Positions 43,895-62,218 of a stretch of 64,000 nt of DNA are shown here, one piece after another; position 1 is the stretch's first letter; every line of letters begins with the position of its first letter. Where the stretch lies: NCBI GenBank assembly GCA_021849125.1, contig JAJZTG010000002.1:12573-76572 (forward strand). Direction: 5' to 3'. A program made the translations under genes and the position numbers. The notes below the pieces were generated by a model. That model saw only the letters and a program-made list of their open reading frames with translations, was not told the origin of the DNA and did not search any database. The stretch is from a bacterium. GTDB lineage: Bacteria; Patescibacteriota; Minisyncoccia; Phycocordibacterales; Phycocordibacteraceae.

Positions 43895-44995
43895 CTATTG
43901 GTTCATCGGGGAAACGAGATAGAGGAATGAGGTATCTCCCACGCCACGGACGATAAGCGGCCGTCCTATGCCTGCTGCGGTAAGCGAGAGGCTTTCTGCA
44001 TTCGTAAGAGAAAGAGCGGCCGAAAGATACCGGTGATTGAATGATAGTTCGAGCATATTGCCTGAAATACGCGCTGGGAGCGTCTCATTGCTTTCTCCCA
44101 CATCCGTATTACGCGCGAAAAAGGAGATATGATTCTGTTTTGAATCAAAGCTCACACGGATCTTCTGGAAAGTATCTGAGAATATCATCGTCCGTTTGAG
44201 CGCTGCTTCGAAATCCTTTTTAAGAACGATGGCTTCTACTATCGATTCTTTCGGTATTATCTGGCGATAGTCCGGATAAACGGCATTCGTGAGCCGTGAG
44301 ACGAGCATCAATGAATCGCTCATGAAAGCACATTGATGTTCATCGAAGGAGAGGGTGATGTCTGCGGTCGGGAGCGCTTGCGCTATATCGAGCGCATTTT
44401 TTGCTGGAATAAGGAATTTACCTTGCACGCCTTTATTCGAAAGCGGGATTTTCTTTTCAGCGAGTCGGAATGAGTCGGTAGCGACAGCGGTAAGTACCCC
44501 GCCTTCTATGGTAATGAAGATGCTTGCGAGTTCTGGACGGATGGTCGAAACGGACGCACATGAAGCGATGGTAGAGAAGAGGTTTGTCAGGAGTGTTCCA
44601 GGGATAGGGATGGTGTTTTGAGGATTTTCAGGGAATGGTATTGAGGGGAAATCCTCATATGGGACCGTCTTTACGGAACTCTTGCTCGTACCGCTTGTGA
44701 TATAGAGAAGGTCACCAGCGTGTTCGAGAGAAATGCTCCCTTCTTGGGTAAGCGAGCTTGCTATCTGCTGTAAGACGGTCGCTGGGATCGCCACTACCCC
44801 ATGAGTAATAACCTTTCCTTGGATGGTGAGGTCGATACCGGTTTCGAGATTAGTCGCACGCAGTTTTATACCATCATCATTCGCGACGATAAGGATCGCT
44901 GAGAGCGCAGGAAGCGTTGCGCTTCTCCGTTCCGCGAAGCGTGCAACGATATGCACTGCTTCATAGAATTCTTTTTTCTCAATTGAAATATTCAT
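43895..44995 (-). CDS. dnaN: DNA polymerase III beta sliding clamp
   Basis: MNISIEKKEFYEAVHIVARFAERRSATLPALSAILI. Confidence 0.85.
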   Translation of the reverse strand: MNISIEKKEFYEAVHIVARFAERRSATLPALSAILIVANDDGIKLRATNLETGIDLTIQGKVITHGVVAIPATVLQQIASSLTQEGSISLEHAGDLLYITSGTSKSSVKTVPYEDFPSIPFPENPQNTIPIPGTLLTNLFSTIASCASVSTIRPELASIFITIEGGVLTAVATDSFRLAEKKIPLSNKGVQGKFLIPAKNALDIAQALPTADITLSFDEHQCAFMSDSLMLVSRLTNAVYPDYRQIIPKESIVEAIVLKKDFEAALKRTMIFSDTFQKIRVSFDSKQNHISFFARNTDVGESNETLPARISGNMLELSFNHRYLSAALSLTNAESLSLTAAGIGRPLIVRGVGDTSFLYLVSPMNQ

Positions 44996-45001
44996 ACCCA
45001 T

Positions 45002-45107
45002 CCTTATTAGCCATGTTGATAATGGGGATACCCTATATATCCAGTATATAGGCCATCAAAATACGCTACACGCTTCAATGAACCTGTGGATATGATACGG
45101 GAAAACA
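45002..45107. other. putative oriC element between dnaN and dnaA (DnaA boxes + AT-rich DUE)
   Basis: TTATCAACA (reverse complement of 45015-45023), ATATCCACA (reverse complement of 45085-45093), and an AT-rich atatatccagtatata stretch. A further CTATCCACA lies at 45155-45163. Confidence 0.5.
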
Positions 45108-46457
45108 TCATACAAGCAGTGAGCGGATATCTTGGATCTCTTTTGATAACTCACTATCCACAACAACTTCACGCTTTATCTTCTCGCATGAGTGGATAAC
45201 CGTCGTATGATCACGACCGCCAAGCTTCGTACCGATAGTCGGATAAGAGATATTGAAATCCTCACGAAGGAGATACATGATGATCTGCCTCGGTCGCACG
45301 ACTTCCCTACGGCGCGTCTTCTCATAAATGCTTTCCTCATCGATCCCATAGAATTCAGCGACTTTCCCGACCACATTCTTAACGGAAATGGTCTTTTGCG
45401 GACGGGTGAATGAACGGAGTGATTGGCGTACTTCAGCGATATCCGGCGCCATACCGCGTACCTGTGCATGACAGACGAGGCTATTCACCATACCTTCAAG
45501 TTCCCGGATCGATCCAGGGAGGGTTGTCGCCACATATTCGATAACTTCATCAGAAAGGATGACGCCATGAAGCGCTGCTTTTCTTCGTACGATAGCCATA
45601 CGGGATTCAGGGTCAGGTTCGCCGATGTCGATCGCCATACCGCTTGCAAGCCTGCTCTTTAAACGATCGGCGATATCCGGAATGGATGAAGGCGGGCGGT
45701 CAGAAGAGAACAATATCTGCTTGTTCGTATCATGCAGGGCATTAAAGAGATGGAAAAGCTCCTCTTGCGTCTTTTCTTTCTTGGAGAGGAACTGGATGTC
45801 ATCCATGATAAGGAGATCATACTGCCGGTATTTATCCTTGAAGCGATTCGCGGTGCCAGCTTGAACGGAATCAGTGTAGTCGATAACGAATTTCTCAGAA
45901 GTGAGATAAAACGCCTTACGCCCAGGGAACTGTTTCTTGAACTGGTTACCGATCGCTTGGATGAGGTGGGTCTTCCCTCTCCCGGTATCTCCGTAGATAA
46001 AAAGCGGATTATAGGTGATGCCTGGTCTGGAAAGGACCGCTTGAGCAGCGCTGTAAGCGAGCGTATTGAAAGATCCGATCACGAACGTGTCGAACGTATA
46101 GCGCGGATTCAAATTATCGCTCTTATTTATATAGAATTCTTCGATCGGAAGCTCGATAGCGCCTCGCGTATTCTTTATCTCTTTTGGCGGCTTACGATGC
46201 TCGTCCTTCGCGATAGTGTATTCGATATTCCTGAATTCGTAGGAAACTTCACGGACGATCTTGAGGAGGAGCGTGTGAAATTTCTTTACGTACCAATCCT
46301 TGAAGAATTGGCTTGGTACGCCGATATACACGATGCCATCCTCTATCTTGACGATGAAGCTGTTCTTGAACCACGTATTGAAATTTGCGGGGGATATCGA
46401 CAGTTCGACCTGAGTCAATACATGTTCCCAGAGTTCCTTAGGATTCTGTGCATCCAT
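45108..46457 (-). CDS. dnaA: chromosomal replication initiator DnaA
   Basis: P-loop GDTGRGKTHL, an AAA+ domain and a C-terminal DNA-binding domain (HTTV). The start is the internal Met MDAQNPKELWE. Confidence 0.9.
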   Translation of the reverse strand: MDAQNPKELWEHVLTQVELSISPANFNTWFKNSFIVKIEDGIVYIGVPSQFFKDWYVKKFHTLLLKIVREVSYEFRNIEYTIAKDEHRKPPKEIKNTRGAIELPIEEFYINKSDNLNPRYTFDTFVIGSFNTLAYSAAQAVLSRPGITYNPLFIYGDTGRGKTHLIQAIGNQFKKQFPGRKAFYLTSEKFVIDYTDSVQAGTANRFKDKYRQYDLLIMDDIQFLSKKEKTQEELFHLFNALHDTNKQILFSSDRPPSSIPDIADRLKSRLASGMAIDIGEPDPESRMAIVRRKAALHGVILSDEVIEYVATTLPGSIRELEGMVNSLVCHAQVRGMAPDIAEVRQSLRSFTRPQKTISVKNVVGKVAEFYGIDEESIYEKTRRREVVRPRQIIMYLLREDFNISYPTIGTKLGGRDHTTVIHSCEKIKREVVVDSELSKEIQDIRSLLV

Positions 46458-46556
46458 ACGTACAGAGGAGTATACGATTATTCCAACATATGCGCACCAC
46501 TGGCGTTTCGGGGGGAACCTGTTAATATCATGTGTACAAGGTAATCCCACCCGATT

Positions 46557-46697
46557 ATGTCTACGAAACGAACGTACCAGCCGAAGAAGCGCAAGCGCGC
46601 AACGACCCATGGTTTCCTCGCTCGGACCAGCACGACCTCAGGTCGTAAGATCGTCCAGAAGCGCCGCCGTGTCGGTCGGGCAAAGCTCGCCGCCTAA
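46557..46697 (+). CDS. rpmH: 50S ribosomal protein L34 (not in ORF track)
   Basis: Translation: [46 protein letters not shown]. Confidence 0.85.
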
Positions 46698-46703
46698 TCC
46701 TCC

Positions 46704-47024: not shown

Positions 47025-47026
47025 CC

Positions 47027-47764
47027 GTGATAACAGCCTTTTTTCATACGTTTTTCTATAATCCGATCTATAACGCGCTGGTCACGTTTGTCGCCGTCGT
47101 GCCCGGTTCCGATGTCGGTATCGCGATCATTCTTCTCACGATAGGGATTCGTATCATCCTCCTCCCTTTCTCCTTATCAGCAGCCAGGACACAACGTGCT
47201 ATGAAAGATCTCCAGCCGAAGCTTAAGGAACTAAAGGAGAAGCATAAAGGCAACAGAGAGCAAGAAGCGATTGAGACACTCGCTCTCTACAAAGAGGCGA
47301 ACGTAAGGCCATTTGCGAGCATTTTGATAACCTTCATCCAGATACCTATCCTGCTCGCGCTGTACTGGGTTTTCATACAAGAATCGTTTCCAGCGATCGA
47401 TATGGCGAAGCTCTATGCGCTTACGCCAATACCCGACACGTTCTCGCTCGCATTTCTCGGTCTTATCCCCGTGGCTGAGAAGAGCTTGCTTCTGGCGCTA
47501 CTGGCTGGGGCCACGCAATTTATCTTGGCGGACATGATGATAAAGGGCACGATGAAGCCCACAGAAGATGCTAAAGCACACGATTTTCAGAAGATTATGG
47601 GTCTTCAGCTCAAATACGTATTCCCGTTCCTGATAGGCGCTATTTCATATAGCACCTCAGCGGCGATCGCGCTCTACTTCATCGCGACAAACCTTGCCGG
47701 CTCAGCGCAAGAATGGCACATGCGCCGCATACTCGAGAAAGAAGCGCTTCCTCAGAGCGCGTAG
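47027..47764 (+). CDS. yidC: membrane protein insertase YidC (short Oxa1-like form)
   Basis: Five TM helices and a conserved LLPFS...PILLALYW segment. It sits downstream of rnpA. Confidence 0.8.
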   Translation: MITAFFHTFFYNPIYNALVTFVAVVPGSDVGIAIILLTIGIRIILLPFSLSAARTQRAMKDLQPKLKELKEKHKGNREQEAIETLALYKEANVRPFASILITFIQIPILLALYWVFIQESFPAIDMAKLYALTPIPDTFSLAFLGLIPVAEKSLLLALLAGATQFILADMMIKGTMKPTEDAKAHDFQKIMGLQLKYVFPFLIGAISYSTSAAIALYFIATNLAGSAQEWHMRRILEKEALPQSA

Positions 47765-48951
47765 CTCCAAAGAGAGCCATCATTTTTGTTCGTGAAGACG
47801 AATACGGTGCGAGAAGGGTTGATTGCCGGGGATTCGATATCGAAACTATCTGCAGTTTCTGTCGAAGGATCAAGGACGAGTTGGGCATAGCGGCCCGCGG
47901 TTTCGATGCGCCAGATGCGGTCAGAAAAATGCGCAGCGCCTTGATACCAGTCATCCGGATATTGGAACGCCGCGCTCGGATTTACCGGTACGCCGCAGTA
48001 TACGGATGAGTCATCTGCAGTCCAGACGCACTTATCTGCGATGGTCGCAATCGGGAGCTGCAGAGCAATGTTTGTAGACGTGTCGACGAGCTCCATCTGG
48101 AGTGCGTTGTTCTGGGTGTAACTCACGAGTACGTATTTCCCTGAATGACTTGCAAGCGCCACAAGGCCGAAATGCGGTCCGGCAACCCGAGAGAAAACAC
48201 CCTGACCGTCAACGATAAAAGCGCTCCCGAGTATAGATCCTGAAGGACGGGAAAAGGCTAGGTACTTCCCCCTCCCCGCGTACGAGACGCGAACGGAACT
48301 GAGAGGTGTTGAAAATAGCGACGTCGAATGAGAGCCGTCTATGCGCACACGGGAGACGGTAGACCCGTTTACGCCAGATGAAAGCTCCAAGACCTCGTTC
48401 GTAGAGACGGCGATATCGGTGAGGTTCTGCGGAAGGAAGAAACCCGTGGAGCTCGTCGCAGAAAGAGCATAAGTGTTTACGGTAGAGAGGTCGTCTCCCG
48501 ATAGATACCGCACGAAAGCGACGGAACCATCCGGGAGCCAAGTGGCATTTTGGATGCTCGGGATGGTTTTGCTACTCACGCGCGTAAGCGTCTTACCCCT
48601 GAAGAGGTATGAAAAGACATTACCGCTCGCACGTTCGATGAACTCGATAGAAGTTTCAGGAGACGATGTCGCCCCTCCGGATGTCGTGTCGACCGCAATC
48701 ACCCCAGGCACCACCGGCCCGGCACTGATTTTCGTGAGACGCGTCCCTACTGCAACAGGAGCTTCAAGAGACCCTTGGTCTGGCGTGGTGGCAAAACCCC
48801 CAGTCCCGCCTTGTCCGGCGACAGGAAGGTTCACGCTTCCTGAGGGTGCAACCGACACCGCAGGACCTGACTTCGTGAGGAAGAAATAGATGATACCGCC
48901 GAGTATGAGAGCGGCGATCGCGATTCCAGAGATGATGAGAGAGCGTCGCAT
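47752..48951 (-). CDS. membrane-anchored hypothetical protein with predicted beta-propeller-like ectodomain; last gene of T4SS-like operon
   Basis: N-terminal TM helix. Repetitive beta-strand-rich sequence. Confidence 0.4.
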   Translation of the reverse strand: MRRSLIISGIAIAALILGGIIYFFLTKSGPAVSVAPSGSVNLPVAGQGGTGGFATTPDQGSLEAPVAVGTRLTKISAGPVVPGVIAVDTTSGGATSSPETSIEFIERASGNVFSYLFRGKTLTRVSSKTIPSIQNATWLPDGSVAFVRYLSGDDLSTVNTYALSATSSTGFFLPQNLTDIAVSTNEVLELSSGVNGSTVSRVRIDGSHSTSLFSTPLSSVRVSYAGRGKYLAFSRPSGSILGSAFIVDGQGVFSRVAGPHFGLVALASHSGKYVLVSYTQNNALQMELVDTSTNIALQLPIATIADKCVWTADDSSVYCGVPVNPSAAFQYPDDWYQGAAHFSDRIWRIETAGRYAQLVLDPSTETADSFDIESPAINPSRTVFVFTNKNDGSLWSYAL

Positions 48952-48954
48952 AGG

Positions 48955-49926
48955 CTATTGGACAACTTTGAATCCAGGATTACTGCTACAACCACCCGCC
49001 CCAGTGTTACTGGTGGTACAAGAAAGCGAGATGTTCCAGCAAGATGCGGAGGCTCCTGTCGTCAGTATTTGCAATACTTTCGAGCCGCATGGGGTCTTTA
49101 CGCTACTCATGCACGTAACTCCCTTATCAGACGTGCAGGCAGAGGCAAAATTGACCGTGTCACGTCCGTTATTTGGGTTAGTTTCAGTCGATGCGATGGG
49201 TTGGTAGTAAGAGTAACCAACAATGGCGTTAACCCATCCAGAAACGCCAGATGAAGAGCTTATATCGGCAAAAGCATACGGTCCGGTAGCAGGACCACGT
49301 TCTGTGCTGCATGTCGCTTTGTGCTCGGTCGTAAAGAAAGGCACGTTACCGGAGCCGGTCGTACATTTTGCCGCGAAGTCCTCAGCAGCTTTTTGAGTCG
49401 GGCAAACCGCCGTTTTAAGCAAGGTGCCAGTAACCGTGCAACCCGCAGCTTTGGCAGCGGTGGTTGCAGGATCAGTATTGGACCCGGAACCTGAAGGAGA
49501 TGTCCCAGAAGAAGGAGGCGGAGGGGCATTCAGATCGATAGGCGGAAGATCGAGGGAGAGGTTCAGGATGCTCGGATTGATGAGCGAGAAGACCAAGACC
49601 GGGGAAAGGACAAGGATAAGTCCGAATATCGCCTGCGTGATGCGCTCGCGCCCCTCGGATACTTTCGAGGCACTGCCTTGTGACGAGGAGATCTGGAGAC
49701 CTCCCCAGATGATCTCGATGATGGCAAGCATAGCGGCAAGCCCGATGAGGTACTTATACAGATTGTTAAAGAAGGAAGTCAGTGTCGCTGAGTTTACGAC
49801 GCTTGTCGCATCTCCGCTGGTTAATCCTGGGATCGGAGCAAGCGCTGTGAATCCGTTTGCGAAAGCAGTCGGAGCAAAAGCGACGAAGGAGAGCAAGGCG
49901 ATAAAGAAGATCTTTTTCATGTTCAT
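48955..49926 (-). CDS. VirB2/TrbC pilin-like protein fused to Cys-rich C-terminal domain
   Basis: A signal peptide and two hydrophobic helices (YLIGLAAMLAIIEIIWG and AIFGLILVLSPVLVFSLI), a Pro-rich linker and a C-terminal region with about 14 Cys. Confidence 0.45.
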   Translation of the reverse strand: MNMKKIFFIALLSFVAFAPTAFANGFTALAPIPGLTSGDATSVVNSATLTSFFNNLYKYLIGLAAMLAIIEIIWGGLQISSSQGSASKVSEGRERITQAIFGLILVLSPVLVFSLINPSILNLSLDLPPIDLNAPPPPSSGTSPSGSGSNTDPATTAAKAAGCTVTGTLLKTAVCPTQKAAEDFAAKCTTGSGNVPFFTTEHKATCSTERGPATGPYAFADISSSSGVSGWVNAIVGYSYYQPIASTETNPNNGRDTVNFASACTSDKGVTCMSSVKTPCGSKVLQILTTGASASCWNISLSCTTSNTGAGGCSSNPGFKVVQ

Positions 49927-50927
49927 AAGCCGAAGAAGTTAGTGCTCGGCTTGCTGCCGAAGGACAAAGAGAGCACAGATGTAGCCCCCTCAGAACCGCT
50001 CGCTGAAGCAGTGAGGGATAAAGAAGCAGTCCCTTCCCCGTCCCCTGAAGGCCGCAGGGTGATGAGACTTCCTGTCTGTGCCGGTGATCCGTTCAAGAAC
50101 CAGCGAAGAATAGGGGCCGAGGTTCCTTTAGGAAAAGAGAAAGGTGCTGCATAGAGCGTTGATTCTGAACCGCGTATCGCGTATGACCCTGAGAGAGCGC
50201 GATCGAAACGTACGCCAAGCAGAGGGTCGCTTTCATAGATACGCACCTTCGGAGATGCGGCGTATAGAGACATCGACGCGCCGCCGACCAAGGTCCCGTC
50301 GGCGGTTTTTACCGAAACAGAAACGGTGCGCTCGCGGTATTGCAGCGGCGTGGCAACGACGATGGTCGTTTTCCCGAGTCCAGACGCGCTTGCCAATCGG
50401 GCTCCATCCACGCTCCACGCATACGAGAGGCCAGAGGGATCGATCGCGCGACCGCGCGAGTCTTTGAAAGCAGCGATGGCGACGACACGGATGCTGCCTC
50501 CCATGGGAGGCAGTGCCTTGCCAGCATACAAGGGCGGAGTGGTGGCGATGGGCTCCGCGATGAGAGAGACATCCTCAGGTTGAAGAGTTAGGGATTTCGA
50601 ATACACGGATCCGTTATTCAAAACGATCACGGTTACTTCGACAGGAACACCCGGACCCTTGAGGGTGATGGGTACGGGCCGCACATTTCCTTCGTATACC
50701 TGGGTTCCGTTTACACGAACCCGCAAGGTTGCGCTTGAGAGGTTCGAGGCAGTGGGAAGCGCAGAAATGACCGCCTGACCGTAAGGAAGCGGGTAATCCG
50801 GGGAGACCGTGACAGAGAACAGGTCTCCTCCCGTCGAACCGATTGATGATAGGTCGAACGATTGAGCAAAGGAGTGCGCAGGAAGTGCTAGTACGAGGAA
50901 AGCAGCGATTAAGAGAGATGCACGCAT
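49923..50927 (-). CDS. secreted hypothetical protein (T4SS-like operon)
   Basis: Signal peptide MRASLLIAAFLVLALPAHSFA. Beta-rich. Confidence 0.4.
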   Translation of the reverse strand: MRASLLIAAFLVLALPAHSFAQSFDLSSIGSTGGDLFSVTVSPDYPLPYGQAVISALPTASNLSSATLRVRVNGTQVYEGNVRPVPITLKGPGVPVEVTVIVLNNGSVYSKSLTLQPEDVSLIAEPIATTPPLYAGKALPPMGGSIRVVAIAAFKDSRGRAIDPSGLSYAWSVDGARLASASGLGKTTIVVATPLQYRERTVSVSVKTADGTLVGGASMSLYAASPKVRIYESDPLLGVRFDRALSGSYAIRGSESTLYAAPFSFPKGTSAPILRWFLNGSPAQTGSLITLRPSGDGEGTASLSLTASASGSEGATSVLSLSFGSKPSTNFFGL

Positions 50928-51006
50928 ACGTACAGTATATAGTGTGCCCAAAGGATTTATGTCTCCTTGTGGGCAGCTCTGGGGAATGTCCACAAGGAGG
51001 CGTAAA

Positions 51007-51609
51007 TCACGCTGCTTCTCTCAGAGCCTCGTATTCTTCAGCATTTGCTGCTTGTTGGGCCTGAAAAGCGCGCAATTGCGCGTTTTGTGACTCGCGTAGC
51101 GTTCGTTGTTTCGAGGATACACGTTTTTCATAGGCGCGTTTCGTCGCCTTGTCCTTCTTTATCTGCGCGCTATAGAGTTTTGCCATGGTTCCCGTTAACG
51201 CAGGAAGCGTGCCAACGAGCGGCACTTCGCTCACAAAGAGGCCCCCCATGAGCCAGAGCACATTCGTGGAATTTTCTTTGATAAGGCGTCGGTTCGTAAA
51301 GATGATCAAAAGACAGATGGTCATCCAGCCGATAAGACCTGCCGCCATCGCTAGCACCACTCCGAAGAGCTCGAACGCGCCTGAACCATAAAAACCAGCG
51401 AGCCCGCCGACCACGACGGCACCCACTTTGCCGACGATGCCGCCTCCCAAGGCAGCCTCGGTTGCCAAACCGAGCAGCACGGGCCCGAAAAACCAGAATT
51501 GTTCGAACATGAAACGAATCGCATCGAACACGAGAGCGAGCGCAAGCATCGGGAGCGCCTTCCCCCAGGTCATCGTCTTGGGAGGAGAATCATGCAGGGT
51601 TCGCAGCAT
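51007..51609 (-). CDS. Gly-rich polytopic membrane protein with C-terminal coiled coil (T4SS-like operon; possible VirB6-like)
   Basis: About four TM helices and a KKDKATKRAYEKRV...coiled-coil tail. Confidence 0.4.
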   Translation of the reverse strand: MLRTLHDSPPKTMTWGKALPMLALALVFDAIRFMFEQFWFFGPVLLGLATEAALGGGIVGKVGAVVVGGLAGFYGSGAFELFGVVLAMAAGLIGWMTICLLIIFTNRRLIKENSTNVLWLMGGLFVSEVPLVGTLPALTGTMAKLYSAQIKKDKATKRAYEKRVSSKQRTLRESQNAQLRAFQAQQAANAEEYEALREAA

Positions 51610-53410
51610 GGCGTATCTTCTCCTGCTTTATGGCGAGGAGCTGCGAAGGGTCTGAGGTGATGATCTGATCCTCGGTGTAAGAAGCGACGACTTTGATCGC
51701 GACATGTTTAAGACCTGCGAAGAAGAGTCCCTCCCCTACTCCGGCCTCAAGCAGAAGGTACTTCTCCTCGTCGGTGAGATTGAAGGTCTCTTGGAGGACG
51801 TCGATCGTCGTCGGGGACTGCTTAAGGAGAAGCTGGAGGGATGAGTTGGTGAGGATCGGGCGGCCATACGGGCTCTTCAAGAAGTCCTCGACGTCCTGAG
51901 TGATGGTGCAGACGCCCAGGTAGTACTTACGGCCACGCTTGGCGAGGCTGTAGAGGAATGAGGCAGTGTCGTCGCTCTTCATCATCCACCATGCCTCATC
52001 GATGATAAGGAGGCGTTTCTTGAGATCATGACGCACTGCATTCCAGATGTAGTGCGTGATGATGTACATCGCGACCGGCTTCAGCTCGTCTTCCATGTCG
52101 CGTACGGAGAAGACGGCGAACTGCTGCTTGAGGTCGATGTTGGTCGGCTGGTTCATGAAGCCTGCCCAGGTGCCGCGCGTATATTTGGAAAGCCGTTCGA
52201 TGAGCGATTCGCTTCCCTCCATGCCCGAGAGCACTTGCTCGAAGTCGGAAAGCAGAGGCGGTTCGGCACCGGTGAAATCAGCCTCGCCAGTAATGTCTTT
52301 CAAGGCATAGGTCTCACTGATGGCACGGTCGATGATCGCGTCCTCTTCCGGAGACAGGCCGCCGAGCATGATACGGAAAAGGCCGACAAGCGAGATGATG
52401 TTCGACCGCAGGATGTCTTTCGGATCCTCGTCTTCCTTCACGGGCGGCAGGTCGAAGGGATTGATATGGTCCTGCGACGAAAGCGAAATGCTGAATGAGC
52501 GTCCGCCGGTTGCGGCAGCGAGCTTCTCGTACTCGCGTTCCGGGTCGATCACGATGACGTCCGTGCCGAACATCAAGGAGCGCAGGATCTCGAGCTTCGT
52601 CGCGTAGCTCTTGCCAGAACCGGATTTCGCGAAGACGACCGAGTTGTAGTTCTCGAGCGAGAAGCGATCGAAGAGGATGAGCGAGGAATTGTGGCGGTTG
52701 ATGCCGTAGAGGATGCCGCGATCAGAGGTAAGGTCGAAGGAGACAAACGGGAAGATCGAAGAAAGAGGAGAGGAATTAAGCTTGGAGTTCACCAAGAGCT
52801 CGTCCGTGCCGAGCGGCAGGCACGAACGGAACCCTTGTTCCTGCTGGAAGAGCGCCGGCTTCGTGTAGACGAGCTTCGCGTCGAGAATGCCGCGGATCTC
52901 CCCTTCCGTCTTGTCGATCTCCTCGCGCGTATCGCCGTACAGGGCGAGATAGAGACCTACGTCGAAAAGCTTCTCTTGGGCTTGCTGCAGGTTGTCACGC
53001 AGGCTTTCAAGATCTTGATAGGCGGTATCAAGCATCGGATCACGCACCAGGCCGCGCGATTCACGTTCAGAAATCTGACTTTGCACCTCGGCGACTTTCT
53101 TCTGGAAGCTCCGGAGCGCGGTTTCCGTCTCGATCGGGTGGATGAAGATGGAAACGTCGAGAACCTTATCGAGATCGATGATCGGCGAGAACCAGCTGTC
53201 CGATAGGAAACGCGGATACGAGATGGTATAGAACGTGCGTACGAACTTCTCGCCGAGTTCAAGCTCGCGCGAGCCGATCTTAAGCGCTGTCGGCGCGATC
53301 GTATCGACGAGATCGAGCGTACTCTGCTTGTAGATATCGCGCGGCAAGACCGGCACGATCTCCGGCGCCTCTTCTTTCTGTTTACGATTGAGAAAATCAA
53401 GTAGTGCCAT
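51590..53410 (-). CDS. virB4: VirB4/TrbE/CagE-family T4SS ATPase, C-terminal part (central + ATPase domains)
   Basis: Walker A VFAKSGSGKSYATK and Walker B LLIIDEAWW. Typical VirB4 segments RGLVRDPMLDTAYQDLE and YLGVCTITQD. Confidence 0.8.
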   Translation of the reverse strand: MALLDFLNRKQKEEAPEIVPVLPRDIYKQSTLDLVDTIAPTALKIGSRELELGEKFVRTFYTISYPRFLSDSWFSPIIDLDKVLDVSIFIHPIETETALRSFQKKVAEVQSQISERESRGLVRDPMLDTAYQDLESLRDNLQQAQEKLFDVGLYLALYGDTREEIDKTEGEIRGILDAKLVYTKPALFQQEQGFRSCLPLGTDELLVNSKLNSSPLSSIFPFVSFDLTSDRGILYGINRHNSSLILFDRFSLENYNSVVFAKSGSGKSYATKLEILRSLMFGTDVIVIDPEREYEKLAAATGGRSFSISLSSQDHINPFDLPPVKEDEDPKDILRSNIISLVGLFRIMLGGLSPEEDAIIDRAISETYALKDITGEADFTGAEPPLLSDFEQVLSGMEGSESLIERLSKYTRGTWAGFMNQPTNIDLKQQFAVFSVRDMEDELKPVAMYIITHYIWNAVRHDLKKRLLIIDEAWWMMKSDDTASFLYSLAKRGRKYYLGVCTITQDVEDFLKSPYGRPILTNSSLQLLLKQSPTTIDVLQETFNLTDEEKYLLLEAGVGEGLFFAGLKHVAIKVVASYTEDQIITSDPSQLLAIKQEKIRHAANPA

Positions 53411-53413
53411 AGG

Positions 53414-54043
53414 TTAGGTATCGAGACGGATCGGATTTTCAAGCTCGCCCGGATTGAAGGAACGATACAGAAGCTCGATAACCTCTTCGGTGCCGAGCGG
53501 TACCGCGCGCACGCCGGTTCCCGAGAGCGCCGCGCTTACGAGCGACATGCGTTGTTCGAGCTGCGCGCGGTCCTCTTCGAAGCTGGTCGCGCTTGTCGCT
53601 GCGCTCGCCTCTTTTTTCTGCAAGAAGCCGACCGCGCTCGCCGCCGTGAGTTTCGGCGCATACGGCACGACGATATAGAACGACTTGGTCATGATGTTGG
53701 TCTGATCGGCGAATGAGCGGACGAACTCGATATACTCGCGGAGCTGGATGCGCATGAGCTCGGTCTTCTGTTCAGCCATGCGTTCTCCCATATACGAAAG
53801 ATAGGGACGCAGGTCCATCCGGCGCGAATTGACGATGATCTGGATCGAGAAGTCGAGCGTATTGAGGAAATTCTGAAAACCGAGGATGATCGCGTTCTGT
53901 TCGTCCGCTGACTTCAGGCCGAAGTTGACGGCAGAACAGATAAGGACGCCGCGGTATCCGCCGTCTTTGAGGATGACGATACCGTTCCGGATCTCTTTGA
54001 CCGGGACGAATTGCTGCGTTTTCCCTGCTTGTGCGGTATCCAT
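53414..54043 (-). CDS. VirB4 N-terminal domain encoded as a separate ORF (same frame, separated from the ATPase part by one TAA)
   Basis: NGIVILKDGGYRGVLICSAVNFGLKSADEQNAIILGFQNFLNTLDFSIQIIV resembles the VirB4 N-terminal region. The stop at 53414-53416 is followed by one codon and then the ATG at 53408-53410. Confidence 0.5.
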   Translation of the reverse strand: MDTAQAGKTQQFVPVKEIRNGIVILKDGGYRGVLICSAVNFGLKSADEQNAIILGFQNFLNTLDFSIQIIVNSRRMDLRPYLSYMGERMAEQKTELMRIQLREYIEFVRSFADQTNIMTKSFYIVVPYAPKLTAASAVGFLQKKEASAATSATSFEEDRAQLEQRMSLVSAALSGTGVRAVPLGTEEVIELLYRSFNPGELENPIRLDT

Positions 54044-54048
54044 AGGTG

Positions 54049-54474
54049 TTAGGTCGATCGCGAAACGGGCTCCGAAGGCTTCACGTCAAGCGACCAGGCG
54101 AGCTCGGAAAGTTTTCCGCGCGTGAGCCGTGGCGTGCCGCGTGAGACAGGGGCTACGGGCGCTTCAGCCTTAGCGACAGTCCCCTCCGTAGGCTGTTCCC
54201 CATATTTCCAAAGCAGAAGCTTACGTTTCGTATAGTAATTGAACCCTGCTTCGAGGATCTCGATGAACGGCTTGCCGTTTACTTTATAGAACGCGAGCGC
54301 TGCGCCGAACGCCGCTATCGGTGCAGAAAACAGGAGCGCGAAGAAAAACGGCAGATACGAGAAGAAGATGACACAGAGGCCAGCGGTCCCTGCTATATAG
54401 ATGAACTGCCTTAAGGTAAATGGCCCGATGATCTTATCTTCGACCTCGATGAATTGGGGTACCTGATATTCCAT
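54049..54474 (-). CDS. VirB3/PrgI-like small 2-TM protein
   Basis: 141 aa with two adjacent TM helices, immediately upstream of virB4. Confidence 0.45.
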   Translation of the reverse strand: MEYQVPQFIEVEDKIIGPFTLRQFIYIAGTAGLCVIFFSYLPFFFALLFSAPIAAFGAALAFYKVNGKPFIEILEAGFNYYTKRKLLLWKYGEQPTEGTVAKAEAPVAPVSRGTPRLTRGKLSELAWSLDVKPSEPVSRST

Positions 54475-55839
54475 CTACTGTAGTATACCAGTGAAAGGCT
54501 GCTCTTGGGGCGCTACTGTGCAAGCATCGCACGCGATCACGGCACCTTTCGGAGCCGAACCGCGCGCATACGTGACTGGCGGTACATTTTTTACACGCCA
54601 TGCTTCACGAGCTGCATCCGTGATACGCCACGATTCGATCACTTCCCCGCTCGAAGCGAAGAGCGTGTGATCACCGCGCAAAGCATCGAGGAAAACGCGT
54701 TCATACGCGTCAGGAAGCATCTCGAAATGCTCTGCGTATGAGAATGAAAGCGGGACACGCTCGATGATGTGGTCATATCCCGGCCGCTTCGCGAAAAAAC
54801 ACAGCTCGACACCCTCGTCGGGCTGGAGACGTAAGGTCAGCCTGTTCGCTTTCTGGGTATCTGCGTGACGATAGGTCACGATGATTTCAGTCTTCTTTTC
54901 AGCAAGCGCCTTCCCGGTCGTGAGCGTGATGGGCACATCTTTCCATCGCGGGTCTGAGGAGCGGAGCCGTACTGATGCAAAGGTCTCGACGTTCGAGTCG
55001 GGGTTCCCGACCTCGTCTTTGTACCCTTCATATTGGCCGAGGATGACCCCGTCCGGGTCGACAGCGAGCGTCTTCAGGAGCGCATGCCGTGCTTCGGGGA
55101 TAGCGTGCAGGTCATCTTCCTTCGGAAGCTTCATGAGCGTGAGCGCTGCGAGTTGCAAGAGGTGGCTCTGGATCAGGTCACGTAACGCACCGGTCTGTTC
55201 ATAGAAAGCCGCGCGGTCTTCGATACCGATCGACTCGCTCGCGACGATATCGATACGTTCGATATTCTCGCCGTTCCAGGTGTGTTCGAAAAGCGGATTA
55301 TCGCTTCTGAACACGACGATGTTCTGGACGGTCTCTTTCGCGAGATAGTGGTCGATGCGGTACACCTGTTCGGGTGAGAACGAGCTCTCGACATGAGCGA
55401 CGAGTTCCTCGGCGCTTGCGGAGTCGACCCCGAACGGCTTCTCCAGCAAGAGCTTGGTCGTACGAGCTTTCGACAAGCCGGAGGACCCGAGATGTTCGAT
55501 GATTGGCCAGGCGGTTTTCGGCGGTACGGCGAGATACCAGAGGCGTTGAGCTCCTCCCCCGAGTGCCGCATCAACCTCTTCGAGATGTGCACCGAGCCGC
55601 ATATAGTCGGATGTTTCTTCGAGCGACATAGGGAAAAGTTCAGTGCGCATTTCAAGATACTCGGCATGCTCTGCCTTCTCGAAAAGATCGTGCAGGACGA
55701 CATCGTTCTTGCGGGTGATGCCGATGATTTCGAATTTTTCCGGTAGTACGCCAGCTGCGGCCATTTCGGCTATGGCAGGCAGCAGTTTCCGTCGCGAAAG
55801 ATCGCCAGTGATACCGACAATGATGAGGATGGTCGGCAT
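54475..55839 (-). CDS. zwf: glucose-6-phosphate 1-dehydrogenase
   Basis: GITGDLSRRKLLPA, EKPFG and RIDHYLAKE motifs. Confidence 0.85.
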   Translation of the reverse strand: MPTILIIVGITGDLSRRKLLPAIAEMAAAGVLPEKFEIIGITRKNDVVLHDLFEKAEHAEYLEMRTELFPMSLEETSDYMRLGAHLEEVDAALGGGAQRLWYLAVPPKTAWPIIEHLGSSGLSKARTTKLLLEKPFGVDSASAEELVAHVESSFSPEQVYRIDHYLAKETVQNIVVFRSDNPLFEHTWNGENIERIDIVASESIGIEDRAAFYEQTGALRDLIQSHLLQLAALTLMKLPKEDDLHAIPEARHALLKTLAVDPDGVILGQYEGYKDEVGNPDSNVETFASVRLRSSDPRWKDVPITLTTGKALAEKKTEIIVTYRHADTQKANRLTLRLQPDEGVELCFFAKRPGYDHIIERVPLSFSYAEHFEMLPDAYERVFLDALRGDHTLFASSGEVIESWRITDAAREAWRVKNVPPVTYARGSAPKGAVIACDACTVAPQEQPFTGILQ

Positions 55840-55845
55840 AATGGA

Positions 55846-57870: not shown

Positions 57871-58476
57871 ATGACGTACTCACCAAAGACATTTAATCTC
57901 CCTACCCTTTCGGGTATCTCGGAGAAACAGGTCAGCGTGCATCTCGGCCTCTATGAAGGCTATGTGAAGCACACGAACCTCATCATGGAGAAGATCAAAG
58001 CGCTCAAGGATGCAGACGCCGAAGGGAATGCCTATCTTATCGCCGAGTTGCGCCGCCGTTTCGGTTTCGAGTTCGATGGCATGCGCATGCACGAGCACTA
58101 CTTCGAACAGCTTGAACACGGCGCGAAGGAATTGAACACAGAAAGCAAGCTAGCCATGGCCGCGGCCGAAAAATACGGTGAACAAGGTCTCGTGGCGCAT
58201 GTAAAAGAAGTGGCTAGTAGTCGCGGCATCGGTTGGGGCGTGGTATACGTTGACCCGATGATCGGGTCGCTCCACACCGTGTTCGTAAACGATCACGAGC
58301 TCGGTCAGCTTGCGGGTCTTCCGATCATCCTCGCGCTCGATCTCTGGGAGCATGCATTCATGGTCGACTATGTGCCGGCCACCAAGAAGGATTATGTCGA
58401 TGCGTTCTTTGCCAACCTCAACTGGGAGGTCGTCGAGAAGCGTTTCGAAGACGCGATGAAGATGAGCGCGACATAA
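57871..58476 (+). CDS. sodA: Fe/Mn superoxide dismutase
   Basis: HLGLYEGYVKHTN, DLWEHAF and YVDAFF motifs. Confidence 0.85.
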   Translation: MTYSPKTFNLPTLSGISEKQVSVHLGLYEGYVKHTNLIMEKIKALKDADAEGNAYLIAELRRRFGFEFDGMRMHEHYFEQLEHGAKELNTESKLAMAAAEKYGEQGLVAHVKEVASSRGIGWGVVYVDPMIGSLHTVFVNDHELGQLAGLPIILALDLWEHAFMVDYVPATKKDYVDAFFANLNWEVVEKRFEDAMKMSAT

Positions 58477-59927
58477 AGCAGCACGACGAGCCATATCGGG
58501 AATAGAGGTATGAGGAAAGCCGCGGCCGGAAGCGCCGCGGCTTTTTCTGCCACCTCTATGATGAATGTGTTTAAGAGATACGCTGGGAACGCGAGTATCG
58601 TGACGAAAAGAGGAGCGATAGACGAGAGAATCAGGCCAGCGAATCCCGCGATAGCGGAGAAGGCCATCGTGAGCGGCACGATCGGCGTGACGATAAGGTT
58701 CGCTGGTACCGCGACGAGCGAAAGGTTGCCGGTCTCGTAAAGAAGAAGCGGCAATACGCTTACCTGCGCAGCGAGCGTAGTCGCAAGCACGCCCCTCAGG
58801 AAGATGCTTTTGATGCGTATAAGCCTCGTTTCGATGAGCGGTGCGAGCCATATGAGACCGGCGGTCGCGGCGACCGAAAGGTCGAAACCAGGATCGAATG
58901 CGAGATAGAGCGGATTGAAAAGAAGCATCAGGAAGACGACGATGAGGAGTGCACGCGAGGCAGCATAGGTACGCCCGGTCGCTCGCGCATAGAGCGCGAT
59001 GAAAGCCATGAGCATTGCGCGGATGGCGGTCGCAGAAGCGCCTGCGATCCCGACAAAGATAAGTACCGCAAGCGCTCCCGCAGCCGTGCTCCATCTGCGA
59101 GAAAGCTTCGTCCGCGAGAACATGAGCAGGACCCACTCCGCGATGACCATGACGTTGTAACCGGAGAGGACGATGATCTGGATGAGACCGCTTCGTGCAA
59201 ATGCGTCCTGGAGCTCGTTACCGAGCCCGGCCTTCCCGCCGATCAGGATACCGCCCGCAAGCGAGCTGTATGGTTCGGGGAGAGCCGATTCGAGTCCGCC
59301 GAGAAACGCATGCTTCGCGCGCGCGAGCATCGCGGGAACCGAATACCAGGGTGCTGGTGCGACCGTATGGATGGAGCCAAAGCTCAAGGTGAAACGCACG
59401 CCGACGCGTTCGAGGTAGCGGTCATAGCGGAAGGGTCGACCGTTGTCCCCCATGAAAGGTTTTGGCACTTCGAGCGTGCCGGTCACATGCACGCGGTCGC
59501 CGACAGAAACGCGCGACGAGCGCGGAGCGACGACCAGCAAGATGGTCGATGTCTTTCCTTCCGAGACGCGCACTTCGACGCGCTGCTTAGCATCGCGCAG
59601 GTCTGGGTCAGCGACCACGATCCCGTCATACGCGACACGTTCCGAGAGGTGTGCCGCAAATGACGTAGGAAGCGGCGTGTCAGCAAGCGACATGCGCAGC
59701 ATGCCGAGTGCTGCGAAAAGGAAGAACACTGCGCCAAGCCCCGTTAGAAAGTTCGAAGACGTACGTTCTAACGGGGTGGGCGAATACGCAGACAAGATCC
59801 TCGGGACAAAAAATAGAAGCGCAGCGAGGAGAAGCGCAAAACAGATCGGTGCCCATCCGAAAGAAAAGATTGAACGCAGGAGGACGCCACCCGCAAACCC
59901 GCTAGTTATCGCGAGCAGGATACCCAT
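58392..59927 (-). CDS. comEC: DNA internalization competence protein ComEC/Rec2 (DUF4131 + competence domains)
   Basis: Polytopic membrane protein. OB-like DUF4131 segment RVEVRVSEGKTSTILLV. Competence-domain helices. Its C-terminus overlaps sodA convergently by 85 nt. Confidence 0.7.
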   Translation of the reverse strand: MGILLAITSGFAGGVLLRSIFSFGWAPICFALLLAALLFFVPRILSAYSPTPLERTSSNFLTGLGAVFFLFAALGMLRMSLADTPLPTSFAAHLSERVAYDGIVVADPDLRDAKQRVEVRVSEGKTSTILLVVAPRSSRVSVGDRVHVTGTLEVPKPFMGDNGRPFRYDRYLERVGVRFTLSFGSIHTVAPAPWYSVPAMLARAKHAFLGGLESALPEPYSSLAGGILIGGKAGLGNELQDAFARSGLIQIIVLSGYNVMVIAEWVLLMFSRTKLSRRWSTAAGALAVLIFVGIAGASATAIRAMLMAFIALYARATGRTYAASRALLIVVFLMLLFNPLYLAFDPGFDLSVAATAGLIWLAPLIETRLIRIKSIFLRGVLATTLAAQVSVLPLLLYETGNLSLVAVPANLIVTPIVPLTMAFSAIAGFAGLILSSIAPLFVTILAFPAYLLNTFIIEVAEKAAALPAAAFLIPLFPIWLVVLLYVALIFIASSKRFSTTSQLRLAKNAST

Positions 59928-60505: not shown

Positions 60506-62218
60506 TTACGCCATGCGGATGTCGAGCAAGCGGAAACGGATCGGGTTCCCGCGTGAAAAGGTGTCACGCTCGAGATGCACGAGCGCGTGCACGAGCGCAC
60601 CGGCGGCAAGAGCGTCAGCTGTCCGCGCGAGGGCGCCTTTCGCGAAGAAGGTGACCGCCTCGATCGCGCGCGCGTCCCCTAAGGAAAGTTTCAAGTGCTC
60701 CTCCCCTTTTCCGAAACGTGAAATAGCGCGCACGGGAACTTCACGGAGCAGAAACACGGGCTTCGGATTCTCGATACCGAACGGAGCGAGGTGTTGCACC
60801 TTCGCGTAGAACGCATCCGTCACATCGGTCATCGCGATATCCGCGTCAGCATGAGCACTCAAGTCTTCGTCGAGCGTTTGATCGAGCTTAGCGAGCGCCT
60901 CGACGAGGCGTTCTTCAAGGAAGAAGACAGCGTCGTTCTTCACGGTGAAACCGCCTGCAGCAGCGTGTCCGCCAAAATCCTCGAAAGTGTCTTCAGTCGC
61001 GCGCATGAGTTCGAGCGCGTGCGTCTTGCCGCCGCTTCGCATCGAACCCTTGAGACGCATGTTTCCCTCTCTCCCCCACAAGAAGACAGGACGTTCGAAT
61101 TCGTCGGCGATGTTTCCCGCAACGAGACCGAGCAGTGCCGGACGCCACTCGGGGTCGCCGAGCGCGATGACGCTCGGCATGCTTTCACGTTCTTTGAGAC
61201 GTGCATGCACTGCACGAGTGATCGCACCGGCTTCCGCTTTTCGTTTCCGGTTAGCGCTCTCGAGCTTCTTCGCGAGAGTGTCGGCGAGACTCTCGTCATC
61301 GGTTGCAAGGAGGTCGAACGCATCGCGCGCATCACCCATACGGCTCGCCGCATTTATGCGCGGTGCGATCATGAAACCGATGTCGTCCTCGGTAAGTGAG
61401 CGCTGATCGGTGCGCATAATCCGCAATAGTTTTTGAAGGCCGATGCGCGGCGATTTCCGCAAGACGAGGAGTCCGTAGGTAGCAAGCACGCGGTTCTCGC
61501 CGATAAGCGGTACCATATCCGCGACGGTCGCGGTCGCGACCATATCGAGGAGCCACTTCTCCCATCCGAGCGGGATACGTTCTCGAAGTGAAGGTTCGGT
61601 GGCAAGAGTAGCGACAACAAGTTTCCATGCGACGCCTGCGCCACAGAGCTCATGAAACGGATACGGTTCATCGGCGCGTGCGTGCGGGTTCACCACGGCG
61701 AACGCATCCGGCAGTGAAGCGCCTGGCAGGTGATGGTCGGTGACGATGACATCGATACCGAGCTCTTTCGCGTGAGCTACCGGTTCAAGATCGGTAATGC
61801 CTGAGTCAACCGTAACGATGAGCGTGACGCCACGTTTCGCGAGAGCCCCGATACCATCCTTGTTCATGCCATACCCTTCAAGGTGTCGATGCGGGATGTA
61901 GTTCTCGAAATTCGCCTCTGCTTTTTTCAAGAAATCGTGAAGGAGCACGCCGCCGGGGATGCCATCAGAATCGTAGTCACTCCACACCGCGATCTTCTCT
62001 TTTGTGAGGATCGCGTCAGCGAGACGTCGTGCCGCCCTCGGCATATCGGTCATCAAAAGAGGATCGTGTACGTGTTCGTCATACGAAGGGCTCAAGAACG
62101 CTTTCGCCGAATCCTTCGAAGTGATGCCGCGCCGAGCGAGGAGTGCCGCCGTAAGGTCGTCGTACGCCGCGAGCTCTTCGCGAAGTTTCTCATCAAGCGG
62201 TTCATGGAGCGGGAACAT
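60506..62218 (-). CDS. recJ: single-stranded-DNA-specific exonuclease RecJ
   Basis: DHH motifs (DYDSDGI, VTVDSGI, VIVTDHH) and a DHHA1 domain. Confidence 0.85.
   Translation of the reverse strand: MFPLHEPLDEKLREELAAYDDLTAALLARRGITSKDSAKAFLSPSYDEHVHDPLLMTDMPRAARRLADAILTKEKIAVWSDYDSDGIPGGVLLHDFLKKAEANFENYIPHRHLEGYGMNKDGIGALAKRGVTLIVTVDSGITDLEPVAHAKELGIDVIVTDHHLPGASLPDAFAVVNPHARADEPYPFHELCGAGVAWKLVVATLATEPSLRERIPLGWEKWLLDMVATATVADMVPLIGENRVLATYGLLVLRKSPRIGLQKLLRIMRTDQRSLTEDDIGFMIAPRINAASRMGDARDAFDLLATDDESLADTLAKKLESANRKRKAEAGAITRAVHARLKERESMPSVIALGDPEWRPALLGLVAGNIADEFERPVFLWGREGNMRLKGSMRSGGKTHALELMRATEDTFEDFGGHAAAGGFTVKNDAVFFLEERLVEALAKLDQTLDEDLSAHADADIAMTDVTDAFYAKVQHLAPFGIENPKPVFLLREVPVRAISRFGKGEEHLKLSLGDARAIEAVTFFAKGALARTADALAAGALVHALVHLERDTFSRGNPIRFRLLDIRMA

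What the first reader, a model, noticed from the sequence alone, without database searches (positions are those of the whole stretch)
53408..53416. VirB4 is interrupted by a single in-frame TAA: N-terminal domain (209 aa) and ATPase part (606 aa) are in the same frame, separated by stop plus one codon
The ORF 53414..54043 ends in TAA (53414-53416). After one codon (CCT) the ATG of the 606-aa VirB4 ATPase ORF follows in the same reading frame (53408-53410). The combined length (209+1+606 aa) matches full-length Gram-positive-type VirB4 (ConE/TcpF, ~800-830 aa), and the 209-aa part looks like the VirB4 N-terminal region. The options are a very recent nonsense mutation (pseudogenisation of the system), a genuine two-polypeptide VirB4, programmed stop-codon read-through, or a sequencing error. 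Each has different implications for whether the T4SS-like system is functional.
Basis: seen in the sequence. Interest (0 to 1): 0.55.

Follow-up and report, generated by a model that had tools for sequence, protein, structure and literature searches.

The report
Conserved two-gene VirB4 (TrsD plus ATPase)

Summary
On the minus strand the sequence reads ...GAT ACC TAA CCT ATG GCA..., so a 209-aa ORF (53414..54043) and a 606-aa ORF (51590..53410) share one frame.

The interpretation as an interruption does not hold.
- **Split is conserved.** All 120 best of 7,856 homologues of the 209-aa protein are free-standing proteins of 209-221 aa. In 79 of 79 related species that carry both genes, the split lies at the same place.
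- **Frame is not conserved.** Spacers run from -14 to 885 nt. All three stop codons and all three relative frames occur. Only 20 of 75 unique junctions are in frame (p=0.27 against 1/3).
- **Insertions are tolerated.** Close relatives carry a ~141-nt MITE-like insert or a two-gene cassette between the halves.
- **Both genes are under purifying selection.** dN/dS is about 0.14 and 0.06.
- **Independent assemblies agree.** They all show the same TAA.
- **Same order in Firmicutes.** Their plasmids also have PrgI, then a TrsD-like gene, then a short VirB4.
- **Already published.** Quinonero-Coronel et al. 2025 (PMC12102498) describe TrsD, a remote homologue of the VirB4 N-terminal portion, as the most abundant Patescibacterial T4SS component, usually next to virB4. 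It is essential in Southlakia epibionticum.

The arrangement is ordinary and already known.

The parts
54049..54474 (-). PrgI-family (VirB3-like) small membrane protein, 141 aa. It lies immediately upstream of the TrsD-like gene (5-nt spacer), and its ATG directly abuts the zwf stop codon.
   Evidence: Pfam PF12666 PrgI, E 8e-11. Junction sequences. The order PrgI, TrsD-like, VirB4 is the same in relatives and in Firmicutes plasmids.
53414..54043 (-). TrsD-like gene: a free-standing homologue of the VirB4 N-terminal domain, 209 aa, ending ...ENPIRLDT-TAA.
   Evidence: NCBIfam: CD1110 VirB4 positions 1-164 (E 7e-8), VirB4_plasma (E 1e-9), TrsD/TraD NF041427 (E 2e-5). Precomputed PF26593 TraC-like. 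41% identity to residues 4-213 of the fused 797-aa VirB4 P0215. AF2 model pLDDT 88.8. Its 14 best PDB matches are all TrwK/VirB4 chains of R388. dN/dS about 0.14.
53408..53416 (-). Gene junction TAA-CCT-ATG: the stop of the TrsD-like gene, a 3-nt spacer, and the start of virB4. No Shine-Dalgarno motif is present. Translational coupling is probable (inferred).
   Evidence: Identical in independent NCBI and ENA assemblies, and the TAA is retained in a 96%-identical Logan relative. Spacer and frame vary among 79 species.
51590..53410 (-). VirB4 ATPase proper (middle region plus RecA-like ATPase domain), 606 aa, starting MALLDFLNRK. Walker A AKSGSGKS lies at 52607..52630 and Walker B LLIIDEAW at 51989..52012.
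   Evidence: NF045971 CD1110-family VirB4, 379 bits against a cutoff of 325. Pfam P-loop_TraG, AAA_10, DUF87. 56% identity to residues 232-795 of fused P0215. Motif coordinates. ATG start in 79 of 79 relatives, with M(A/S)LLDFLNRK or a close variant in the forms listed. dN/dS about 0.06.
47752..51609 (-). Downstream genes of the same cluster: orf200 (51007..51609, overlapping virB4 by 20 nt), orf356 (49923..50993), orf323 with a T4SS pilin domain (48955..49926), and orf399 (47752..48951).
   Evidence: ORF list. Pfam T4SS_pilin PF18895, E 6e-8, for orf323. The other three have no family hits.
43895..46610 (-). dnaA (45108..46610) and dnaN (43895..45001), next to the T4SS cluster. This is chromosomal, origin-proximal context.
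   Evidence: Pfam Bac_DnaA and DNA_pol3_beta. Matches the origin-proximal T4SS location reported in PMC12102498.

Best explanation
The window carries the standard Patescibacterial (MPF-FATA-related) type IV secretion core in the order prgI/virB3-like, trsD-like, virB4. What is a single ~800-aa VirB4 in many systems is made here as two polypeptides. The first is a 209-aa TrsD-like protein equivalent to the first ~170-210 residues of VirB4. The second is a 606-aa protein holding the rest of VirB4, including the Walker A/B ATPase domain. The gene boundary sits in what is a short variable linker in fused homologues. It is old and is fixed at the same position in all relatives examined. That TAA and ATG share a frame in this genome is one of three equally likely outcomes of a short, freely drifting spacer. 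It has no functional meaning. The following steps are inferred, not shown. The downstream gene is probably translated by termination-reinitiation coupling, because the spacer is 3 nt, there is no Shine-Dalgarno motif, and the neighbouring genes of the operon are packed the same way. The two products probably re-associate non-covalently, with the TrsD-like piece linking the ATPase hexamer to the PrgI/VirB3-like membrane protein, as the covalently attached N-terminal domain does in R388 TrwK. The system is intact, not pseudogenised.
For: (1): 7,856 homologues of the 209-aa protein, and the best 120 are all 209-221 aa.
(2): of the 150 best 50%-identity cluster representatives, only one (P0215, 797 aa) is fused. 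The 300-440-aa ones are the N domain plus a low-complexity tail.
(3): in 79 of 79 GTDB species loci that hold both genes, the split is at the same place. The N protein ends ENPIRLDx and the C protein starts M(A/S)LLDFLNRK. Spacers are -14, 1 (22 loci), 2 (17 loci), 3-8, 14-50 and 552-885 nt. Stops are TAA 44, TGA 26, TAG 9. Frames are 20/30/25 of 75 unique junctions (p=0.37).
(4): close relatives tolerate a ~141-nt inverted-repeat insert or a DUF5680 plus 23S-rRNA-IVP gene pair between the two genes.
(5): synonymous sites are near saturation (pS ~0.7), while pN is 0.13 for N and 0.06 for C. dN/dS is about 0.14 and 0.06.
(6): the same TAA appears in independent NCBI and ENA assemblies.
(7): Firmicutes plasmids (Pontibacillus, C. 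perfringens pJFP838A) have a PrgI-position gene, an N homologue, and a 621-641-aa VirB4 as separate genes.
(8): sequence and fold tie the 209-aa protein to the VirB4 N-terminal region.
(9): PMC12102498 reports TrsD as a remote homologue of the VirB4 N-terminal portion. It found 2,272 homologues in Patescibacteria, 1,664 of them next to virB4, and the one in Ca. Southlakia epibionticum ML1 is listed as essential.
(10): spacers are 0-6 nt from zwf to virB4, and 0 of 79 virB4 starts are preceded by a GGAG/GAGG/AGGA motif.
Against: No expression, protein or interaction data exist for this organism. Physical re-association of the two products and the coupling mechanism are inferences. The match to the NCBIfam TrsD/TraD model is far below its curated cutoff (24 against 200 bits), so 'TrsD' is a homologue label, not strict family membership. 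Foldseek did not report which TrwK residues were matched, and TM-scores are moderate (0.50-0.56). One fused orthologue exists in a Patescibacterial-type context (L086), so whether the event was a fission or a fusion is not resolved.
Confidence: 0.95

Rival explanations
1. Programmed stop-codon read-through of TAA gives a minor full-length (~816 aa) VirB4 alongside the two separate products in this lineage.
For: The two ORFs are in frame, with one sense codon and no further stop between them. A small sub-group of relatives shares the same TAA-CCT-ATG or TAA-ACC-ATG junction (L031, L056, L062, L077). One natural fused orthologue shows that a fused protein is viable.
Against: The frame is not conserved: 55 of 75 unique junctions are out of frame, and 9 of the 20 in-frame ones have further in-frame stops. 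From general knowledge, TAA is the least leaky bacterial stop codon. A 96%-identical relative has a ~141-nt insert at the junction. No recoding signal was seen; the upstream nucleotides are constrained only as the codons for ENPIRLD.
Confidence: 0.02
2. A recent nonsense mutation split a formerly fused VirB4, so the T4SS-like system is being pseudogenised.
For: A single in-frame stop lies between two halves that together match a full-length VirB4.
Against: The split sits at the same position in 79 of 79 species whose synonymous sites are saturated. It is also seen in thousands of homologues and in Firmicutes plasmids. Both halves are under strong purifying selection. The downstream gene has its own conserved ATG and N-terminus.
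Confidence: 0.005
3. A sequencing or assembly error created the TAA.
For: None beyond the a priori possibility in a metagenome-assembled genome.
Against: The junction is identical in contigs of different length from different assemblies: NCBI GCA_027321305.1 (89 kb) and ENA ERZ27237442 (26 kb). The TAA is retained in a 96%-identical relative from an unrelated run, SRR14663241. All relatives have a stop at this position.
Confidence: 0.005

Closest known systems
TrsD + VirB4 of the Patescibacterial T4SS (Quinonero-Coronel et al. 2025, PMC12102498; essential in Ca. Southlakia epibionticum ML1 according to Wang et al. 2023 as cited there)
   Same: A small protein remotely homologous to the VirB4 N-terminal portion is encoded next to virB4. 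PrgI/VirB3-like and VirB2-like pilin genes lie nearby. The location is chromosomal and close to dnaA. All of this is seen in the window and in 79 relatives.
   Different: Nothing substantive.
TrsD-TrsE of staphylococcal pGO1/pSK41, and the TrsD/TraD family (NCBIfam NF041427) of the MPF-FATA class
   Same: A ~200-aa protein related to the VirB4 N-terminus is encoded separately from the VirB4 ATPase. The window protein hits the NF041427 profile at positions 20-144 of 201 (E 2e-5). According to PMC12102498, TrsD is typical of the pGO1 subclass.
   Different: The score is far below the family's curated cutoff (24 against 200 bits). The window system is chromosomal, lacks a nearby relaxase or coupling protein among the genes scanned, and carries a pilin-domain gene. 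The adjacency of trsD and trsE in pGO1 rests on my own knowledge and was not checked here.
PrgI, hypothetical protein, CD1110-family VirB4 triplets on Firmicutes plasmids (e.g. Pontibacillus NZ_CP062975.1, C. perfringens pJFP838A NZ_CP013615.1)
   Same: An N homologue (26-28% identity, E 2e-18 and 4e-12) is a separate gene directly upstream of a short (621-641 aa) VirB4. A small gene precedes it, annotated PrgI family in C. perfringens and hypothetical in Pontibacillus.
   Different: The N-domain genes are longer (274 and 312 aa). The junctions differ: an 11-nt overlap in one and a 130-nt gap in the other. The setting is a large plasmid.
Single-chain VirB4 (R388 TrwK; CD1110/ConE/TcpF-type Gram-positive VirB4; fused Patescibacterial orthologue P0215)
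   Same: The domain content is the same when the two window proteins are added together. The predicted fold of the 209-aa protein matches TrwK chains in the R388 cryo-EM structures.
   Different: Those proteins are one polypeptide. Here the boundary falls in what is a short variable linker in P0215 (between residues ~213 and ~232).

Membership tests
VirB4 ATPase, CD1110 family (NCBIfam NF045971) | Whole-protein score above the curated cutoff | tested here: met
   The 606-aa protein scores 379 bits against a cutoff of 325, covering profile positions 181-733 of 752.
VirB4 ATPase, CD1110 family (NCBIfam NF045971) | Walker A and Walker B NTPase motifs | tested here: met
   AKSGSGKS at residues 261-268 and LLIIDEAW at residues 467-474. 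Pfam P-loop_TraG, E 6e-25.
VirB4 ATPase, CD1110 family (NCBIfam NF045971) | N-terminal ~170 residues are part of the same polypeptide | tested here: not met
   Profile positions 1-164 are matched by the separate 209-aa protein (E 7e-8). The ATPase gene starts at about profile position 181.
TrsD/TraD family (NCBIfam NF041427) / TrsD of MPF-FATA | Score above the curated cutoff of NF041427 | tested here: not met
   24.4 bits against a cutoff of 200, E 2e-5, profile positions 20-144 of 201. It is a remote homologue only. I therefore call it TrsD-like, following the usage of PMC12102498, whose CONJscan TrsD profile I could not run.
TrsD/TraD family (NCBIfam NF041427) / TrsD of MPF-FATA | Small (~200 aa) protein homologous to the N-terminal portion of VirB4 | tested here: met
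   41% identity to residues 4-213 of fused P0215; the top 14 PDB fold matches are all TrwK/VirB4.
TrsD/TraD family (NCBIfam NF041427) / TrsD of MPF-FATA | Encoded next to virB4 within a T4SS gene cluster | tested here: met
   A 3-nt spacer to virB4, PrgI directly upstream, and a pilin-domain gene downstream.
Pfam PF26593 (TraC-like) | Pfam hit on the protein | tested here: inconclusive
   A precomputed hit is recorded for the identical protein P0001 and for all 120 listed homologues. The local Pfam-A copy returned no PF26593 hit, so I could not reproduce the score.
Programmed stop-codon read-through / recoding site | In-frame relation of the two ORFs conserved among orthologues | tested here: not met
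   20 in frame, 30 at +1 and 25 at +2 among 75 unique junctions. Further in-frame stops occur in 9 of the 20 in-frame cases.
Programmed stop-codon read-through / recoding site | A read-through product is detectable | not testable with these tools
   Needs proteomics or ribosome profiling.
Pseudogene (recent nonsense mutation) | Stop absent in close relatives, with relaxed selection on the fragments | tested here: not met
   A stop is present in 79 of 79 species. dN/dS is 0.14 for N and 0.06 for C.

The most novel reading that the evidence does not exclude
In the sub-lineage with the in-frame TAA-CCT-ATG junction (the window, L056, L062, L077), rare read-through of TAA yields a small amount of covalently fused VirB4. 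This fused form would seed or bias assembly of the otherwise two-piece ATPase, and so would be a lineage-specific use of an accidental frame relation.
Probability: 0.02. Interest if true: 0.4.

Novelty: already known. Interest (0 to 1): 0.08.

Why it matters
For annotation, the locus should be called an intact T4SS with trsD-like and virB4 genes. It should not be called a VirB4 pseudogene or a recoding candidate. Automated pipelines and readers that see 'N-terminal fragment, stop, ATPase in the same frame' would over-call pseudogenisation in about a quarter to a third of Paceibacteria-type genomes. For biology, the finding adds little beyond PMC12102498. The new observations are that the split point is fixed, that both termini are conserved, and that the spacer tolerates mobile inserts. 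These support the view that TrsD-like proteins are independent and probably essential subunits.

Tried and rejected
- **Profile search of solved structures.** A 57-sequence alignment of N homologues searched against PDB sequences gave no meaningful hit. Only the fold comparison worked.
- **Local Pfam-A.** It gave no family for the 209-aa protein, even at E<=1, although precomputed tables list PF26593.
- **MITE-like element in the window.** I searched the window for the terminal repeat of the element seen in L083 and found none.
- **Paired fusion model.** I considered predicting a fused or paired N+C model to test docking.
- **Search with the fused orthologue.** I considered spending a second large protein search on P0215 to settle fission versus fusion. 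I judged it not decisive for the question asked. A contig look-up showed only that P0215 sits in a PrgI/dnaA-proximal Patescibacterial-type context.
- **Literature.** A search for 'split VirB4' gave nothing specific. The relevant paper came from searching 'VirB4' with 'Patescibacteria'.

Full report
**Observation.** The minus strand reads ...CGT CTC GAT ACC TAA CCT ATG GCA CTA CTT.... ORF 53414..54043(-) is 209 aa and ORF 51590..53410(-) is 606 aa. They share a frame and are separated by TAA plus one CCT codon.

**What the two ORFs are.** The 606-aa protein is a CD1110-family VirB4-like ATPase. It scores 379 bits on NCBIfam NF045971 against a cutoff of 325, but covers only profile positions 181-733 of 752. 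It has Walker A AKSGSGKS and Walker B LLIIDEAW motifs and Pfam P-loop_TraG, AAA_10 and DUF87 domains.
- The 209-aa protein matches positions 1-164 of the same VirB4 profile (E 7e-8).
- It also matches the Mbov_0397-type VirB4 profile (E 1e-9) and the TrsD/TraD family profile NF041427 (E 2e-5, far below cutoff).
- A naturally fused 797-aa orthologue (P0215) aligns with the 209-aa protein over its residues 4-213 (41% identity). It aligns with the 606-aa protein over residues 232-795 (56% identity). The gene boundary therefore corresponds to a short variable linker.
- An AlphaFold2 model of the 209-aa protein is confident (mean pLDDT 88.8, pTM 0.79). Its 14 best Foldseek matches in the PDB are all TrwK/VirB4 chains of the R388 T4SS (probability 1.00, TM 0.35-0.56). 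There is then a sharp drop to unrelated proteins.
- The gene immediately upstream (54049..54474) is a PrgI-family, VirB3-like protein.

**Is the split conserved?** Yes.
- A search of 5.8 billion proteins found 7,856 homologues of the 209-aa protein. The best 120 (75-100% identity) are all 209-221 aa. They come from Paceibacteria, Kaiserbacteria, Minisyncoccia and similar MAGs.
- An exhaustive HMMER search of 1.84 billion 50%-identity representatives found 2,563 clusters. Of the best 150, only P0215 is fused. The 300-440-aa ones are the same domain followed by a low-complexity tail, not an ATPase.
- A scan of one genome per GTDB species returned 80 loci, of which 79 contain both genes. In all 79 the N gene ends at the same place (ENPIRLDx in nearly all). 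The ATPase gene starts with ATG in all 79, encoding M(A/S)LLDFLNRK or a close variant in the forms listed.

**Is the shared frame meaningful?** No.
- The spacer between stop and start is 1 nt in 22 loci and 2 nt in 17. It is 3 nt in 5 loci, 4-8 nt in 15, and 14-50 nt in 14. It is -14 nt (an overlap) in one locus and 552-885 nt in five.
- Stops are TAA 44, TGA 26 and TAG 9.
- Among 75 unique junctions the relative frame is 0, +1 and +2 in 20, 30 and 25 cases. This does not differ from equal thirds (chi-square p=0.37; binomial p=0.27 for in-frame against 1/3).
- Nine of the 20 in-frame cases have further in-frame stops in the spacer.
- The five long spacers carry a DUF5680 gene. In the two read in full (L014, L071) a 23S-rRNA-intervening-sequence/bAvd-like four-helix-bundle gene follows it.
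- A relative whose N protein is 96% identical to the window's has a ~141-nt inverted-repeat element inserted exactly after TAACCTATG. Its virB4 start follows the insert.

Selection for a read-through product is therefore excluded as a general feature.

**Error or recent mutation?** Neither.
- The junction is identical in contigs of different lengths from NCBI (GCA_027321305.1) and ENA (ERZ27237442) assemblies. The TAA is also present in the Logan relative.
- Across the 70 (N) and 67 (C) complete genes, synonymous sites are near saturation (median pS 0.73 and 0.71). Non-synonymous differences are few (pN 0.13 and 0.06). In the less saturated pairs dN/dS is about 0.14 for N and 0.06 for C. Both genes have been kept as separate, functional ORFs over long evolutionary time.

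**How it most likely works.**
- Shown: two conserved genes, tightly packed, with no GGAG/GAGG/AGGA motif upstream of virB4 in any of 79 loci. The neighbouring junctions from zwf through virB4 have 0-6-nt spacers, and orf200 overlaps virB4 by 20 nt (M50-zwf 6 nt, zwf-prgI 0 nt, prgI-trsD 5 nt, trsD-virB4 3 nt). All three stop codons serve as stops in the operon, so the code is standard.
- Inferred: virB4 is translated mainly by termination-reinitiation coupling. This coupling is dispensable, since relatives with long spacers or inserts exist.
- Inferred: the TrsD-like protein binds the ATPase non-covalently and connects it to the PrgI/VirB3-like membrane protein, like the covalent N-terminal domain of TrwK in R388.

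**Comparison with what is known.** Quinonero-Coronel et al. 2025 (PMC12102498) describe this arrangement.
- It was the most abundant T4SS component found in Patescibacteria: 2,272 homologues, of which 1,664 are associated with virB4.
- It is otherwise restricted to the pGO1-type subclass of MPF-FATA.
- The copy in Ca. Southlakia epibionticum ML1 is listed as essential.
- The paper also reports PrgI/VirB3, VirB2-like pilins and proximity to dnaA. All of these are seen in the window: a pilin-domain gene at 48955..49926, dnaA at 45108..46610 and dnaN at 43895..45001.

I additionally found the same arrangement on plasmids of cultured Firmicutes: an N homologue as a separate gene directly upstream of a short VirB4. 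This occurs in Pontibacillus (11-nt overlap) and in C. perfringens pJFP838A (130-nt gap), where the preceding gene is annotated PrgI family. Hits occur in 383 plasmid records, mostly Bacillus. The split therefore predates, or was inherited with, the Patescibacterial system.

**Verdict.** The arrangement is the ordinary, conserved and published TrsD-like plus VirB4 gene pair. The in-frame relation is coincidental, and the T4SS core is intact. Novelty: already known. Interest: low.

Noticed in passing
L083:1690-1830 (Logan SRR14663241; N protein 96% identical to the window's): A ~141-nt element sits exactly at the trsD/virB4 junction. It has terminal inverted repeats (CCCGGCATGACTACATGGCAT ... 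ATGCCATGTTGTCATAACCGGG) and is flanked by a TATG duplication. It looks like a MITE. It is absent from the window.
   Followed up: partly
L014:3478-4362, L071:4628-5506, also L046, L050, L072: In five species an insert of 552-885 nt lies between trsD and virB4. In L014 and L071 it is a two-gene cassette: a DUF5680 protein of ~152-155 aa and a 23S-rRNA-intervening-sequence/bAvd-like four-helix-bundle protein of ~124-141 aa. The shorter inserts (L072 552 nt, L046 719 nt) were not read in full. The insert begins with a conserved TAGG(C/A)TTTAGGCNNTAGGCNCTAGC repeat right at the trsD stop codon.
   Followed up: partly
L003, L004, L011, L028-L030, L042, L044, L068, L069 (spacer after the trsD TGA stop): About a dozen species share a 31-39-nt AT-rich spacer with repeated TTTAAA/ATATTTAAATAT motifs between trsD (always TGA there) and virB4. 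It could be an internal promoter or a regulatory site. Its function is unknown.
   Followed up: no
window 43895-56478 (minus strand): The T4SS cluster is embedded in a tight chromosomal gene string with 0-6-nt spacers over its first five genes: M50 peptidase, zwf (glucose-6-phosphate dehydrogenase), prgI, trsD-like, virB4, orf200, orf356, pilin-domain orf323 and orf399. dnaA and dnaN follow. The zwf stop TAG directly abuts the prgI ATG, which suggests co-transcription of a metabolic gene with the T4SS genes. comEC (58392..59927) and recJ (60506..62218) lie just upstream.
   Followed up: partly
P0143, P0147, P0180, P0183, P0191, P0200, P0203, P0205: In other lineages the TrsD-like domain carries a 100-230-residue low-complexity tail rich in P, Q, T, A and N, in place of ending at ~210 aa. 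The role of this disordered tail is unknown.
   Followed up: no
L086 (NCBI GCA_964615945.1, CAZTUR010000004.1): This is the only fused VirB4 (797 aa) among the 150 best representatives. It sits after PrgI and close to rnpA, yidC and dnaA, which is a Patescibacterial-type context. It is either a secondary fusion or a retained ancestral state. It is seen on a single contig.
   Followed up: partly
L030 (DAHXMN010000149.1), and L005, L007, L013 and others: A contig carrying this bacterial trsD-virB4 pair is filed under a 'Candidatus Woesearchaeota archaeon' MAG. Its junction is identical to those of L028 and L029 from bacterial bins, so this is likely binning contamination. Many Paceibacteria-like contigs are labelled 'uncultured Candidatus Saccharibacteria'. 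The bin WY3.bin61 contributes three different loci (L011, L029, L035), which suggests either a mixed bin or several copies.
   Followed up: no
L053:4643-4657: In one Kaiserbacteria MAG the trsD ORF runs 14 nt past the virB4 ATG. It is the only overlapping junction among the 79.
   Followed up: no
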